Source: Escherichia coli
GTDB lineage: Bacteria; Pseudomonadota; Gammaproteobacteria; Enterobacterales; Enterobacteriaceae
NCBI RefSeq assembly: GCF_024502345.1
Contig: NZ_JALDNN010000001.1
Reading direction: 5' to 3' (one strand)
DNA length: 64,000 nucleotides
Part shown: positions 18,888 to 22,055 of the stretch, in pieces
Position numbering within the stretch: the first letter of the stretch is position 1
Layout: every line of letters begins with the position of its first letter
The notes under the pieces: model-generated
The model's input: the letters and a program-made list of their open reading frames with translations, nothing else
The model's database searches: none
Told to the model about the DNA's origin: nothing
Program-made: the position numbers and the translations under genes

Positions 18888-19586
18888 TTAAACGCTTTCT
18901 AACTGTTCTGCTGTGATGCTACCCAGATGTTGCGTTTTTCCTGCCAGATAGCGTGTTTTAAAGCGGGTAAAATGCTCGCCTAACCCTGCTGCCGCCCCGG
19001 TATCGCCGGCCATATCTAACAGTGCGATGGCTACCTCGGCAGTACAATATTGGCCTGCAGCCTGGGCTTCACGCAGGCGATAGGCAGAAAGCCGGGAAAG
19101 ATCGACGGAAATGACGGGAAGATTATCCAGATACGGACTTTTACGAAACATCTTGCGAGCTTCCGGCCAGGTACCATCGAGCATGATAAACAGCGGTGGC
19201 TTACCGGCAGGTGGTGTGAAGATCACTTCCCGTTGCTCATCAGCATACGAGGCGGGAAAGACCACCATTGGCTGATAATCCGGGTTTTGTACCAGATCCA
19301 GCAAATCCTGCGAGGGTTCGGTACGCGACCATTGAAACGCAACGGTATCAGGCAAAATATCAGCAATCAGACGCCCGGTATTACTGGGCTTCATTGGCTC
19401 GGTGTCGAACATCAGCAAACAGAAGCGACTTTTTGCTTGTGCTGGGGTAATTGTCGAACAGAGACATAATTTCTCTGGCAAAAGACAGCGTTGGCAGCGA
19501 CGAACGCGATTACCGCGGGCAAGAAAAGGACGTGTTGCGCGCGCAATACGCTCGGCGCGTAACTGGAGAACAGCGTTTTCGGTCAT
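18888..19586 (-). CDS. tapT: tRNA-uridine aminocarboxypropyltransferase (DTW domain)
   Basis: Internal ATG at 19586 gives the 232-aa MTENAVLQLRAERIAR... protein with CxxC...CxC and DGTW motifs; recognised as YfiP/TapT. Confidence 0.85.
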   Translation of the reverse strand: MTENAVLQLRAERIARATRPFLARGNRVRRCQRCLLPEKLCLCSTITPAQAKSRFCLLMFDTEPMKPSNTGRLIADILPDTVAFQWSRTEPSQDLLDLVQNPDYQPMVVFPASYADEQREVIFTPPAGKPPLFIMLDGTWPEARKMFRKSPYLDNLPVISVDLSRLSAYRLREAQAAGQYCTAEVAIALLDMAGDTGAAAGLGEHFTRFKTRYLAGKTQHLGSITAEQLESV

Positions 19587-19654
19587 AAGAGAGCGTCGAA
19601 AAAACGCCATTGTCGCAGAGGAGAAAACGGGGCACAAGATGCGCCCCGGTAAGA

Positions 19655-20074
19655 TTAAAGAGATTCGTTCAGCCAGCTATCGAACGGCGCTTTCGGTACT
19701 GCGCCATTAAGCATGTCGACAACCTGACCGTTTTTGAAAATCATGATCGTCGGTATACTACGAATTCCAAAGCGACTGCTCAATTCACGTTCAGCTTCGG
19801 TATTCACTTTCACAAAGCGCACTTTACCGCTACGCTCTTGCGCGACATCTTCAAAAATTGGTGCGAAATTACGGCAGGGGCCGCACCACGGTGCCCAGAA
19901 GTCGATCACCACTGGTAGATCATCTTTCAGCAATTTGTCGAGCGTTTCACCGGTCGCATTAATCACCTCTCCGTCAAACAAGTCGTGACCGCAGCGTCCG
20001 CATTTTGCCGCATCTTCGATCCGATCGTCGGGAATGCGATTGATGGCCTGACAATGGGTACAAACGGTATTCAT
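19655..20074 (-). CDS. trxC: Thioredoxin 2 (N-terminal zinc-finger extension)
   Basis: 139-aa ORF with N-terminal CxxC...CxxC and the active site WCGPC. Confidence 0.92.
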
Positions 20075-20280
20075 AACTAACCTCGGGATGAGTAAGGAGA
20101 CTTATCGGCAACAACGCCGGTATGTTTCTAATATGTTACATATTATCGGGGACATTGTTCCAGACAACAATCTGTTTTATTCAATAGGTATGATAGTCGC
20201 AGGCTTTGGTACGAAATCATGGCGAACCGCGCGGACTTCGGGTAATCTGCGCGCTTCGCGCAGCGCTGGTGGAGAAAAGC

Positions 20281-21318
20281 ATGAACGATGAAATGAAAGG
20301 TAAAAGCGGCAAGGTCAAAGTGATGTATGTCCGCAGTGATGATGATTCTGATAAACGTACCCACAACCCGCGTACCGGGAAAGGGGGCGGGCGTCCAGGA
20401 AAATCTCGTGCTGACGGTGGCCGTCGCCCCGCCCGCGATGACAAACAGAGTCAGCCCCGTGACCGCAAGTGGGAAGATTCGCCGTGGCGCACGGTTTCCC
20501 GCGCGCCGGGTGATGAGACGCCGGAAAAGGCCGATCACGGTGGCATCAGTGGTAAAAGTTTTATTGATCCGGAAGTGTTGCGTCGTCAGCGTGCGGAAGA
20601 AACCCGCGTCTACGGCGAAAACGCCTGTCAGGCACTGTTCCAGAGCCGTCCGGAAGCGATTGTTCGCGCCTGGTTTATCCAGAGTGTAACGCCGCGTTTT
20701 AAAGAAGCCTTGCGCTGGATGGCAGCAAACCGCAAAGCGTACCATGTGGTAGATGAAGCGGAATTGACAAAAGCGTCAGGCACGGAACATCACGGTGGCG
20801 TTTGCTTCCTGATCAAAAAGCGTAATGGCACAACCGTGCAGCAGTGGGTAAGCCAGGCAGGCGCGCAGGATTGTGTTCTGGCACTGGAAAACGAATCTAA
20901 CCCGCATAACCTGGGTGGCATGATGCGCAGCTGCGCGCACTTTGGCGTGAAAGGTGTTGTGGTGCAGGATGCGGCACTGCTGGAGTCGGGTGCGGCTATC
21001 CGTACCGCAGAAGGCGGCGCAGAGCACGTTCAGCCGATTACTGGCGACAACATTGTTAACGTGCTGGATGATTTCCGTCAGGCGGGTTACACCGTAGTGA
21101 CAACTTCCAGCGAGCAGGGGAAACCGCTGTTCAAAACCAGCCTGCCAGCGAAAATGGTACTGGTGCTGGGTCAGGAATATGAAGGGTTACCGGATGCCGC
21201 ACGCGATCCGAACGATCTGCGCGTGAAGATTGACGGTACGGGCAACGTTGCCGGGCTGAATATCTCTGTTGCAACAGGCGTTTTGCTTGGTGAATGGTGG
21301 CGTCAGAATAAAGCCTGA
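20281..21318 (+). CDS. yfiF: SpoU/TrmH-family RNA 2'-O-methyltransferase with basic low-complexity N-terminal tail
   Basis: ATG at 20281 gives the 345-aa [14 protein letters not shown]... protein; first ~100 aa rich in K/R/G/D/P; C-terminal SPOUT methyltransferase domain. Confidence 0.85.
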
Positions 21319-21365
21319 TAAATCAGCCGGGTGGCAACTCTGCCATCCGGCATTTTCCCGCAAAT

Positions 21366-22055
21366 TTACTCACTCTCTGCCGGTAATACTGGCATCCAGT
21401 CAATCGGCGTCTCGCCATGTTGTTCCAGCCACTGATTTGCCAGCACAAAATGGTTGCAGCCAAAGAATCCACGATGCGCCGAAAGCGGCGACGGATGCGG
21501 TGCTTTCAGTACATGATGGCGTTGCTTATCTATAATCGCCCCTTTCTTTTGCGCATGCGATCCCCACAACAAAAACACCACGCCTTCGCGATGCTGGTTA
21601 ATCAGGCTGATCACTTTATCGGTGAAGGTTTCCCAGCCGAGGCTGGCGTGGGAATGCGCCTGACCTGCGCGTACCGTCAACACAGTATTGAGTAGCAGAA
21701 CGCCCTGACGCGCCCAGCTTTCAAGATAACCATGATTAGGGCGGGTGAAGCCCGGAATAGTATTTTCCAGCTCTTTATACATATTCAGCAGTGACGGAGG
21801 AGTGGCGATTCCGGGGCGAACGGAAAATGCCAGCCCATGCGCCTGTCCCGGTCCGTGATAAGGATCCTGGCCGAGAATCACCACTTTAACGTCACCCAAC
21901 TCGGTAAAGCGGAACGCGTTAAAGACATCTTTTTGTGGTGGATAGATAGTGATGCCGGACTGCCGCTCGCTGGCGACGGTCTGAAGGGTATTAAGAAAAT
22001 AGGGTTGCTGCTTCTCTTCAGCCAGCACGTCATGCCATGTTAATTCGTTAGCCAT
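21366..22055 (-). CDS. ung: Uracil-DNA glycosylase
   Basis: 229-aa [23 protein letters not shown]... with the GQDPYH catalytic motif. Confidence 0.95.

What the first reader, a model, noticed from the sequence alone, without database searches (positions are those of the whole stretch)
20281..20600. Highly basic, low-complexity N-terminal tail on the SpoU-family methyltransferase YfiF
The first ~100 residues (…[65 protein letters not shown]…) are rich in K/R/G/D/P with no predicted fold, followed by a SPOUT methyltransferase domain. Such tails often mediate RNA or ribosome binding. The substrate of this enzyme is, to my knowledge, not defined.
Basis: inference. Interest (0 to 1): 0.3.

Follow-up and report, generated by a model that had tools for sequence, protein, structure and literature searches.

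The report
Disordered charged tail of YfiF methyltransferase
The E. coli orphan RNA methyltransferase YfiF really does carry a roughly 95-residue unstructured, charged N-terminal arm, most likely an RNA or ribosome tether; the feature was already noted in 2007 and what it does is still untested.

Summary
Window 20281-21318 (+) is E. coli yfiF, 345 aa, present in 5425 of 5426 complete E. coli genomes. The quoted peptide and the coordinates are correct.

AlphaFold2 gives pLDDT below 50 for residues 1 to about 95, both as a monomer and as a linked pseudo-dimer. No Pfam or PDB match covers the tail.

"Highly basic, low-complexity" is overstated. The tail has 26 K/R against 20 D/E (net +6, pI 9.8). 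The only strongly basic part is residues 25-52 (net +9).

The tail is modular and under selection across 80 Enterobacteriaceae orthologues:
- Residues 1-52 are near-invariant, dN/dS 0.12.
- Residues 67-107 are near-invariant, dN/dS 0.045.
- Between them lies a hypervariable spacer of 14-45 aa, dN/dS 0.42, built from RKRDD-type repeats in other genera.

A PW motif recurs in the tails of distant homologues.

The best reading is a disordered RNA/pre-ribosome tether carrying conserved short docking motifs. This is inferred, not shown.

Tkaczuk et al. 2007 already described this positively charged, presumably disordered extension. YfiF cross-links to rRNA and tRNA (Monti et al. 2024), but I found no defined substrate. 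The feature is known and of low interest.

The parts
20271..20274 (+). Shine-Dalgarno GGAG, 6 nt upstream of the yfiF ATG
   Evidence: The sequence is read directly. GGTGGAG upstream of the ATG is conserved in the start contexts tallied over the 80 orthologue loci.
20281..21318 (+). yfiF coding sequence (345 codons plus stop), an orphan SpoU/TrmH-class RNA 2'-O-methyltransferase homologue
   Evidence: Annotated yfiF in 5425 of 5426 E. coli genomes. NCBIfam NF008117 matches at 667.6 bits over residues 1-345. Pfam finds SpoU_sub_bind and SpoU_methylase.
20281..20436 (+). Tail segment A, residues 1-52: near-invariant and predicted disordered
   Evidence: dN/dS is 0.12. Many invariant columns appear in the alignment of 19 genera. 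pLDDT is below 50.
20311..20334 (+). KVKVMYVR, residues 11-18: an alternating polar/hydrophobic, strand-like motif
   Evidence: Invariant in 19 genera. Retained as GKVRIMYVR in P0122 (Symbiopectobacterium), GKVRVMYVR in P0128 (Sodalis) and GNVKVMYVR in an unnamed AT-rich lineage (P0130) (sequences, names). Not predicted to fold or to dock.
20335..20352 (+). Acidic cluster SDDDSD, residues 19-24
   Evidence: D20, D21 and D24 are invariant. Residues 1-24 are net -1.
20353..20436 (+). Basic G/R/K/P core, residues 25-52 ([28 protein letters not shown]); the only strongly basic and low-complexity part
   Evidence: Net +9 in 28 residues. The SEG-type trigger windows start at residues 30 and 43. NPRTGKG is invariant.
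20437..20478 (+). Tail segment B, residues 53-66: a hypervariable spacer, at the shortest observed length (14 aa) in this sequence
   Evidence: dN/dS is 0.42, and length ranges from 14 to 45 aa across 81 sequences. In Enterobacter mori it is built from 15/30-nt tandem repeats (L026 3176-3273). No tandem repeat is found in the window.
20479..20601 (+). Tail segment C, residues 67-107: near-invariant
   Evidence: dN/dS is 0.045. The alignments show the conservation.
20479..20508 (+). [10 protein letters not shown], residues 67-76: a conserved tryptophan-containing short motif
   Evidence: P68, W69, R70, T71, S73, R74, A75 and P76 are invariant in 19 genera. PW occurs in 14 of 60 long tails of distant homologues, against 4.9 expected and a maximum of 12 in 1000 shuffles.
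20569..20598 (+). Pre-domain helix, residues 97-106 ([10 protein letters not shown]); this already belongs to the ordered part
   Evidence: AF2 predicts helix H97-106 in both models, with pLDDT rising from 65 to 87 in the monomer. E107 is conserved in at least 90% of the 71-sequence family alignment.
20608..20823 (+). L30e-like substrate-binding domain (Pfam SpoU_sub_bind), residues 110-181
   Evidence: PF08032 matches at E 5.7e-15. pLDDT is above 90. dN/dS is 0.022 over residues 108-190.
20875..21288 (+). SpoU (SPOUT) methyltransferase domain, residues 199-336
   Evidence: PF00588 matches at E 1.1e-31. Foldseek's best match is RlmB 1gz0 at E 1e-20. SpoU motif residues N207, R216, E299 and N327 are conserved.

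Best explanation
Residues 1 to about 95 of YfiF form an intrinsically disordered, polyampholytic arm on an RlmB-like enzyme made of an L30e-like domain plus a SpoU domain.

The most likely mechanism is tethering. The Gly/Arg/Lys-rich basic core (residues 25-52) makes low-specificity contacts with RNA backbones. This raises the enzyme's affinity and capture radius for a large structured RNA or RNP: rRNA in pre-ribosomal particles, possibly tRNA.

Two near-invariant short motifs flank that core: KVKVMYVR with the acidic cluster at residues 11-24, and [10 protein letters not shown] at residues 67-76. I propose they fold only on contact with a specific RNA or protein surface and so supply specificity. 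The variable RD/RK-repeat spacer (residues 53-66) sets the reach between them.

Shown here: the disorder prediction, the composition, the modular conservation and the purifying selection. Shown by others: the whole protein binds RNA in vivo and co-purifies with ribosomal components. Inferred: the tail is the element responsible, the motifs are docking sites, and YfiF is an active methyltransferase.
For: Disorder:
- AF2 pLDDT is below 50 for residues 1 to about 95 in the monomer and in both copies of a linked pseudo-dimer.
- The tail has no Pfam hit and no PDB sequence hit.
- Its charge and hydropathy are in the disordered range and unmatched elsewhere in the window.

Selection:
- dN/dS is 0.12 for residues 1-52 and 0.045 for residues 67-107. 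The SPOUT domain gives 0.13 and the spacer 0.42.
- All 80 Enterobacteriaceae loci fetched keep the tail.
- The N-terminal strand motif and the PW motif persist in homologues with only 36-68% identity in the catalytic core.

Generality:
- 79 of 121 full-length distant homologues carry extensions of 30 aa or more.
- 57 of the 60 long extensions are net positive, with a median charge of +9.

RNA context:
- The folded part is closest to 23S rRNA 2'-O-methyltransferases: RlmB, RlmR, Tsr, YsgA, AviRb and MRM3.
- YfiF is recovered as an RNA-binding protein and cross-links to rRNA and tRNA (PMC11066096).
- It co-purifies with ribosomal proteins and rRNA-modification enzymes (PMC3384335).

Precedent within the SPOUT superfamily: the flexible, basic N-terminal extension of Trm10 (residues 1-73) binds tRNA on its own with Kd 0.86 uM and contributes to activity (PMC3874184).
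Against: - No experiment or computation assigns RNA binding to the tail. The L30e-like domain alone could account for the cross-links.
- Net charge is modest (+6), and acidic clusters are conserved too.
- Near-invariance of the motifs is unusual for a non-specific electrostatic tether. The Trm10 extension is poorly conserved. The motifs could therefore bind proteins rather than RNA.
- The iCLIP used plasmid-induced His-tagged YfiF, so its targets may be inflated.
- By my own knowledge, all known ribose methylations in E. coli rRNA and tRNA already have assigned enzymes. The cognate RNA is therefore unidentified and catalytic activity is unproven.
- Low pLDDT is not proof of disorder.
Confidence: 0.5

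Rival explanations
1. The tail is mainly a protein-docking arm. The invariant motifs ([18 protein letters not shown]) are short linear motifs that bind a protein partner such as RNase E/degradosome components, ribosomal proteins or other assembly and modification factors. RNA contacts of the basic core would be secondary.
For: - The motifs are near-invariant inside a disordered region. This resembles the conserved 'microdomains' in the disordered half of gamma-proteobacterial RNase E, a comparison I base only on the title of PMC4435900.
- Monti et al., citing a STRING-db network, describe YfiF as physically interacting with Rne, Rnr, RluC and PhoL.
- YfiF is listed among the proteins enriched for the 'BR body' row (query rne) in cross-linking SEC-MS (PMC13106914).
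- The alternating K-V-K-V-M-Y-V-R pattern suits beta-strand augmentation. This last point is inference.
Against: - No partner has been mapped to the tail.
- High-throughput pull-downs of RNA-binding proteins are often bridged by RNA.
- The pseudo-dimer AF2 run shows no docking onto YfiF itself. It says nothing about other partners.
Confidence: 0.2
2. The tail is regulatory. The conserved acidic cluster and the polyampholyte segments fold back onto the basic RNA-binding surface or onto the basic core, giving autoinhibition or RNA mimicry. Alternatively, the N-terminus controls protein turnover.
For: - The SDDDSD cluster is conserved next to the basic core, and positive and negative residues are nearly balanced.
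- RNA binding by YfiF changes between growth phases.
Against: - AF2 predicts no intramolecular contact in either the monomer or the pseudo-dimer.
- The folded part is nearly neutral (net -1, pI 6.6), so the tail does not obviously complement its overall charge.
- There is no evidence on protein stability.
Confidence: 0.1
3. The tail drives localisation or condensation. The charged disordered region would partition YfiF into RNA-rich assemblies such as degradosome foci or sites of ribosome assembly.
For: - The disordered regions of bacterial RNA helicases enable phase separation and define functional specificity (PMC11260450 abstract).
- Homologues carry very long repetitive R/D/E/P/G tails of up to 367 aa.
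- YfiF is listed in the 'BR body' row (query rne) of the SEC-MS table.
Against: - The E. coli tail is short and has the minimal spacer length.
- It has no RGG repeats, as the sequence shows directly.
- There are no imaging or phase-separation data.
Confidence: 0.08
4. The tail is an artefact or evolutionary junk: a mis-called start codon, or an unconstrained low-complexity leader with no function.
For: - Low-complexity N-termini are sometimes annotation artefacts.
- Public databases hold many frameshifted YfiF fragments from this region.
Against: - The ATG and Shine-Dalgarno are conserved in the start contexts tallied over the 80 loci.
- dN/dS is 0.12 and 0.045 in the two conserved tail segments.
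- Length variants stay in frame.
- The NCBIfam equivalog model covers the protein from residue 1.
- The alternative frames are not conserved as open frames.
Confidence: 0.02

Closest known systems
RlmB (YjfH), the E. coli 23S rRNA Gm2251 2'-O-methyltransferase, PDB 1GZ0
   Same: Both have an L30e-like N-terminal domain followed by a SpoU catalytic domain. RlmB is the best sequence hit in the PDB (E 2.7e-19, YfiF residues 108-342) and the best structural match (Foldseek E 1e-20). Tkaczuk et al. 2007 describe YfiF as a gamma-proteobacterial paralogue of RlmB.
   Different: RlmB starts directly at the L30e-like domain and has no counterpart of YfiF residues 1-107. YfiF scores below both curated RlmB cut-offs (117.8 against 160.15 bits, and 92 against 366). 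RlmB's target site is known; YfiF's is not.
The basic, flexible N-terminal extension of Trm10 (a SPOUT tRNA m1G9 methyltransferase)
   Same: It is a flexible N-terminal extension rich in basic residues on a SPOUT enzyme. The isolated extension (residues 1-73) binds tRNA with Kd 0.86 uM and contributes largely to activity (PMC3874184). This is the mechanism I propose for YfiF.
   Different: The Trm10 extension is poorly conserved in sequence, whereas two thirds of the YfiF tail is near-invariant. Trm10 is monomeric, methylates a base, and lacks an L30e-like domain.
Charged disordered regions of bacterial RNA-metabolism enzymes: the RhlE C-terminal disordered regions and the RNase E non-catalytic region with its conserved microdomains
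   Same: These are R/K/D/E/G-rich disordered regions on RNA enzymes of Proteobacteria. In RhlE they enable phase separation and define functional specificity (PMC11260450 abstract). In RNase E, short conserved microdomains sit in a variable disordered sequence (title of PMC4435900), which is the same layout as the YfiF tail.
   Different: The enzyme classes differ, and the disordered regions lie at the C-terminus or internally. Functional data exist for those proteins but not for YfiF.
The N-terminal Gly/Arg-rich (GAR) domain of eukaryotic fibrillarin (from my own knowledge, not tested here)
   Same: It is an N-terminal G/R-rich disordered domain on an rRNA 2'-O-methyltransferase, implicated in RNA binding and localisation.
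   Different: Fibrillarin has a Rossmann fold and is guided by snoRNAs. Its GAR domain consists of RGG repeats, whereas the YfiF tail has no RGG or RG dipeptide (read directly from the sequence). The resemblance is an analogy only.
N-terminal extensions of the mitochondrial RlmB homologues MRM1/Pet56 and MRM3
   Same: Tkaczuk et al. group them with YfiF as the family members that carry positively charged N-terminal extensions.
   Different: In the eukaryotic proteins the extension is generally taken to include the mitochondrial import signal (my own knowledge). That role cannot apply in a bacterium.

Membership tests
SpoU/TrmH-class SPOUT RNA 2'-O-methyltransferases (Pfam PF00588) | Match to the SpoU_methylase profile above the curated cut-off | tested here: met
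   110.3 bits against a cut-off of 29.7, residues 199-336.
SpoU/TrmH-class SPOUT RNA 2'-O-methyltransferases (Pfam PF00588) | The three SpoU motifs with their conserved Asn/Arg, Glu and Asn/Ser residues | tested here: met
   [10 protein letters not shown] (N207, R216), GQEYEG (E299) and LNISV (N327, S329) align to the RlmB motifs. N207 is invariant and R216 and N327 are conserved in at least 90% of the 71-sequence family alignment. E299 and S329 are conserved in at least 90% of the 11-sequence alignment.
SpoU/TrmH-class SPOUT RNA 2'-O-methyltransferases (Pfam PF00588) | The SPOUT alpha/beta fold | tested here: met
   The AF2 model has pLDDT above 90 over the domain. The 50 best Foldseek PDB matches listed are SPOUT enzymes. 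I did not compute the knot topology explicitly.
SpoU/TrmH-class SPOUT RNA 2'-O-methyltransferases (Pfam PF00588) | SAM-dependent methyl transfer to a ribose 2'-OH of a defined RNA | not testable with these tools
   No substrate was reported in the papers I read, and none of the 28 yfiF papers listed is about one.
RlmB (23S rRNA Gm2251 methyltransferase; NCBIfam TIGR00186 and NF008386) | Score at or above the curated equivalog cut-off | tested here: not met
   117.8 bits against 160.15, and 92 against 366. YfiF is a paralogue, not RlmB.
RlmB (23S rRNA Gm2251 methyltransferase; NCBIfam TIGR00186 and NF008386) | Architecture of an L30e-like N-terminal domain followed by a SpoU domain | tested here: met
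   PF08032 at residues 110-181 and PF00588 at 199-336. The best structural match is 1gz0.
YfiF equivalog (NCBIfam NF008117, PRK10864) | Full-length match above the cut-off, N-terminal tail included | tested here: met
   667.6 bits against 267, residues 1-345 on profile positions 1-344.
Intrinsically disordered region | No confident predicted structure, and composition in the disordered range | tested here: met
   pLDDT is below 50 for residues 1 to about 95 in two AF2 runs. Mean hydropathy is 0.311 against a boundary of 0.44, with 41% charged and 18% hydrophobic residues.
Intrinsically disordered region | Experimental disorder (NMR, CD, SAXS or proteolysis) | not testable with these tools
   I found no such data.
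RGG/GAR-type RNA-binding box | Clustered RGG or RG repeats | tested here: not met
   Residues 1-107 contain no RGG and no RG dipeptide, only two GR dipeptides (G37-R38 and G47-R48). This is read directly from the translation.
RNA-tethering basic extension of the Trm10 type (a functional class, not a sequence family) | The isolated extension binds RNA, and deleting it lowers activity | not testable with these tools
   Only whole-protein RNA binding is known for YfiF.

The most novel reading that the evidence does not exclude
The tail is not a generic basic tether but a specific recruitment device. Its two ancient motifs are the N-terminal GxVKVMYVR strand and the SPW motif, both conserved well beyond Enterobacteriaceae. 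They would dock YfiF onto a defined pre-ribosomal or degradosome-associated partner. There YfiF would act either as a conditional writer of a ribose methylation not yet mapped in E. coli RNA, or as a methylation-independent assembly or quality-control factor. The repeat-expandable spacer would tune reach between lineages.
Probability: 0.25. Interest if true: 0.45.

Novelty: already known. Interest (0 to 1): 0.2.

Why it matters
By my own knowledge, YfiF is one of the last SpoU-type methyltransferase homologues in E. coli without a known target. Its deletion was reported to slow growth (PMC11066096). Knowing how it finds its RNA would help close the catalogue of E. coli RNA modifications.

The tail is the feature that most clearly sets YfiF apart from its paralogue RlmB. 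It is therefore a sensible handle for experiments: a tail deletion, and point mutants in the KVKVMYVR and SPW motifs.

The existence of the charged disordered tail has been in print since 2007. It does not by itself make the substrate question testable. The added value here is limited to two points. The tail is modular and under strong selection, and it is not predicted to fold even next to a second protomer.

Tried and rejected
- **Tail-only homology search**. It returned only YfiF fragments from Enterobacteriaceae. There is no sign that the tail is a mobile module fused to other domains.
- **Tail-only searches of PDB sequences and Pfam at E up to 10**. Nothing was found.
- **Rfam scan of 19900-20800 on both strands at E up to 1**. 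Nothing was found.
- **Promoter and terminator scan of 19950-21450**. No promoter-like sites were found. The four weak terminator-like hairpins are close to the shuffle expectation and were ignored.
- **Tandem repeats in the E. coli tail-coding DNA**. None were found. The repeats exist only in other genera.
- **Overlapping ORFs**: antisense 20143-20745 and +2 frame 20327-20689. The antisense frame is open in 12 of 25 orthologues and the +2 frame in 0 of 25. I rejected both as genes; they are by-products of the codon composition.
- **AF2 of two YfiF copies joined by a Gly-Ser linker**, to test whether the tail motifs dock on the partner protomer. Both tails stayed at pLDDT 23-41. The alignment had only 11 sequences, so this negative result is weak.
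- **Naming the organisms of distant homologues**. Most clusters carry no name. Only Symbiopectobacterium, Sodalis, Zophobihabitans, Corallincola and 'Gammaproteobacteria bacterium' were recovered.
- **The genome-contig scan**. It kept only Enterobacteriaceae as its best 80 loci, so the wider distribution rests on the unnamed representatives.
- **GeZi et al. 2021** (YfiF and replication-initiation timing). The paper is not held.
- **Supplements of Monti et al. 2024**. They give no tail-specific data and no position for the cross-links on the yfiF mRNA.
- **The tRNA m2A37 (TrmG) idea for YfiF.** Tkaczuk et al. already argued against it on active-site grounds, and I did not pursue it.
Full report
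**What is at the coordinates**

The 1.5-kb region matches 5425 of 5426 complete E. coli genomes. It is annotated yfiF ('tRNA/rRNA methyltransferase') and lies between trxC (divergent) and ung (convergent). In 80 orthologous loci from other Enterobacteriaceae, trxC is adjacent in 80 and ung in 76.

Pfam places an L30e-like SpoU_sub_bind domain at residues 110-181 and the SpoU_methylase domain at 199-336. Nothing matches residues 1-107. The NCBIfam equivalog NF008117 covers residues 1-345. The RlmB, TrmH and TrmL models all score below their cut-offs. The finding's coordinates (20281-20600) therefore correspond to codons 1-107. This is the part of YfiF with no counterpart in RlmB, whose alignment to YfiF begins at residue 108.

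**Is the tail real and translated?**

Yes.
- A GGAG Shine-Dalgarno lies 6 nt upstream of the ATG, and GGTGGAG is conserved upstream of the ATG in the start contexts tallied over the 80 loci.
- All length differences among orthologues keep the frame.
- The tail evolves under purifying selection.
- The two overlapping ORFs in other frames are not conserved. The antisense ORF (20143-20745) is open in 12 of 25 orthologues, and the +2-frame ORF (20327-20689) in 0 of 25. They are by-products of the R/G/D/P-rich codon composition.
- No Rfam family matches this region.

**Checking the description**

- Composition. Residues 1-107 hold 26 K/R, 20 D/E, 13 G, 8 P and 9 S, with 19% hydrophobic residues against 43% in the rest of the protein.
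- Departure from chance. Residues 1-95 are 41% charged and 18% hydrophobic. None of 13,571 windows of the same length in the other long ORFs of the window is as extreme. The segment lies on the disordered side of the charge-hydropathy boundary.
- "Highly basic" is only partly apt. The tail is a polyampholyte (net +6, pI 9.8). A basic core at residues 25-52 carries net +9, and both flanks are net -1.
- "Low-complexity" in the SEG sense applies only to about residues 30-54.

**Structure prediction**

AlphaFold2 with a 71-sequence alignment gives pLDDT below 50 for residues 1 to about 95. A helix follows at 97-106, then the two domains at pLDDT above 90.

SPOUT enzymes are generally dimers. I therefore also modelled two copies joined by a Gly-Ser linker, to see whether the conserved tail motifs dock on a partner protomer. 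Both tails stayed at pLDDT 23-41. This is a weak negative result, because the alignment had only 11 sequences.

The folded part is closest to 23S rRNA 2'-O-methyltransferases that share the L30e-like domain: RlmB, RlmR, Tsr, YsgA, NHR, AviRb and MRM3.

**What I add: the tail is modular**

Across 19 genera and 80 loci the tail divides into three segments.

| Segment | Residues | Sequence character | dN/dS |
|---|---|---|---|
| A | 1-52 | Near-invariant | 0.12 |
| B | 53-66 | Hypervariable spacer, 14-45 aa | 0.42 |
| C | 67-107 | Near-invariant | 0.045 |
| L30e-like region (for comparison) | 108-190 | Folded | 0.022 |
| SPOUT region (for comparison) | 191-345 | Folded | 0.13 |

- Segment A holds a strand-like KVKVMYVR, the acidic SDDDSD cluster, [11 protein letters not shown] and GGRRPAR.
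- Segment B is at its minimum length of 14 aa in the Escherichia sequences here. In Enterobacter, Klebsiella and others it is expanded by RKRDD/RPRDD pentapeptide repeats. These are encoded by 15/30-nt tandem repeats (L026 3176-3273). No such repeat exists in the window.
- Segment C holds [10 protein letters not shown] and [23 protein letters not shown].

Most of the "low-complexity tail" is thus constrained as tightly as the enzyme's domains.

**Beyond Enterobacteriaceae**

A search of 1.84 billion cluster representatives shows that charged N-terminal extensions are the rule in this clade.
- 79 of 121 full-length distant homologues have extensions of 30 aa or more, up to 367 aa and often built of tandem repeats.
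- 57 of the 60 long extensions are net positive.
- The N-terminal strand motif survives in Symbiopectobacterium, Sodalis and an unnamed AT-rich lineage.
- A PW dipeptide, usually [ST]PW followed by basic residues, occurs in 14 of 60 long tails. The expectation is 4.9, with a maximum of 12 in 1000 shuffles.

The few names recovered for distant homologues are all gamma-proteobacterial: Zophobihabitans, Corallincola and an unclassified 'Gammaproteobacteria bacterium'. This fits the published view that YfiF is a gamma-proteobacterial paralogue of RlmB. A search with the tail alone found only YfiF fragments, so the tail is not a module shared with other proteins.

**Mechanism**

My best-supported reading (confidence about 0.5) is a disordered tether. 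The basic core makes low-specificity RNA contacts that raise affinity and capture radius for a large RNA or RNP. The invariant flanking motifs fold on contact with a specific surface. The spacer sets the reach.

Indirect support:
- YfiF is recovered as an RNA-binding protein. It cross-links in vivo to rRNA, tRNA and some sRNAs, and its deletion slows growth (PMC11066096).
- It co-purifies with ribosomal proteins and rRNA-modification enzymes (PMC3384335).
- It is listed in the 'BR body' row (query rne) of a cross-linking SEC-MS table (PMC13106914).
- The basic, flexible N-terminal extension of another SPOUT enzyme, Trm10, binds tRNA on its own and is needed for activity (PMC3874184).

Against it:
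- Nothing assigns RNA binding to the tail rather than to the L30e-like domain.
- The iCLIP used an induced His-tagged construct.
- The near-invariance of the motifs fits specific protein docking at least as well. That is the main rival, at about 0.2.
- Autoinhibition or turnover control (about 0.1) and condensate or localisation roles (about 0.08) are not excluded.
- A mis-annotated start or a functionless leader is effectively refuted by the selection data.

**Comparison with what is known**

The observation itself is in the literature. Tkaczuk et al. [quoted passage not shown] They list YfiF among the unproven 2'-O-methyltransferases of E. coli. Monti et al. 2024 still only hypothesise rRNA/tRNA methylation. 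No paper I read reports a substrate, and none of the 28 papers that mention yfiF appeared from its title or abstract opening to address one.

On membership:
- YfiF meets the tested features of the SpoU class: profile score, motifs and fold.
- It meets its own equivalog model.
- It fails the RlmB cut-offs.
- Its tail is not an RGG/GAR box, because the sequence contains no RGG or RG dipeptide.

**Verdict**

The feature is already known and of low interest (0.2). The modest additions are three:
- the modular, strongly selected architecture of the tail;
- the recurrent strand and PW motifs;
- the negative folding result in a pseudo-dimer.

Together these turn a vague "basic tail" into specific mutants worth making.

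Noticed in passing
window 20287-20370 (yfiF codons 3-30): Synonymous codons are unusually conserved at the 5' end of the gene. The chance that two of 25 non-redundant orthologues share a codon is 0.83 over the first window of conserved codons (residues 3-20) and 0.72 over the next (13-30), against about 0.55 elsewhere. dS is 0.57 for residues 1-52, against 0.96-1.37 in the other segments. This is probably the general constraint at the start of enterobacterial genes (my own knowledge). A link to the reported binding of YfiF to its own mRNA was not testable.
   Followed up: partly
window 20143-20745 (-) and 20327-20689 (+, +2 frame): Two long ORFs overlap the tail-coding DNA in other frames. Neither is conserved as an open frame across orthologues: the antisense frame is open in 12 of 25 and the +2 frame in 0 of 25. 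Many database entries of about 135 aa are YfiF N-termini frameshifted into the +2 frame, at scattered positions with a cluster near residues 35-40. I take these to be assembly errors or sporadic pseudogenes.
   Followed up: yes
L026 3176-3273 (Enterobacter mori yfiF), corresponding to window 20437-20478: The variable spacer of the tail is built from 15/30-nt tandem repeats encoding RKRDD/RPRDD units. Its length ranges from 14 to 45 aa among Enterobacteriaceae, which suggests expansion and contraction by repeat slippage. The Escherichia sequences here have the minimal, non-repetitive version.
   Followed up: partly
Proteins P0127, P0140, P0149, P0163, P0248 and others: Distant YfiF/RlmB-like homologues from metagenomes carry very long N-terminal tails of 200-367 aa. 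These are made of near-perfect tandem repeats rich in R, D, E, P and G, for example RRDDRPRFERDGERKPRFNDDRRSEGRGEG repeated about ten times in P0127. Their organisms are mostly unnamed.
   Followed up: no
Tails of P0122, P0126, P0128, P0133, P0138, P0156, P0157, P0163, P0164, P0175, P0213, P0223, P0229 and P0269: A PW motif, usually [ST]PW followed by basic residues, recurs in otherwise unalignable tails of homologues with only 36-68% core identity. It occurs in 14 of 60 tails against 4.9 expected. 17 of 52 tryptophans follow a proline, although proline makes up only 10.8% of tail residues. The motif's partner is unknown.
   Followed up: partly
window 18888-19637 (-): The gene beyond trxC encodes a DTW-domain protein (Pfam PF03942, E 7e-57). 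By my recollection this is yfiP, a tRNA aminocarboxypropyl-transferase, so a tRNA-modification gene lies two genes from yfiF. They are on opposite strands, and I tested no functional link. The listed TTG start is probably too far upstream.
   Followed up: no
PMC11066096 appendix: The published iCLIP of YfiF used a plasmid-induced His-tagged protein. The reported binding to its own mRNA and to abundant RNAs could therefore partly reflect overexpression.
   Followed up: no
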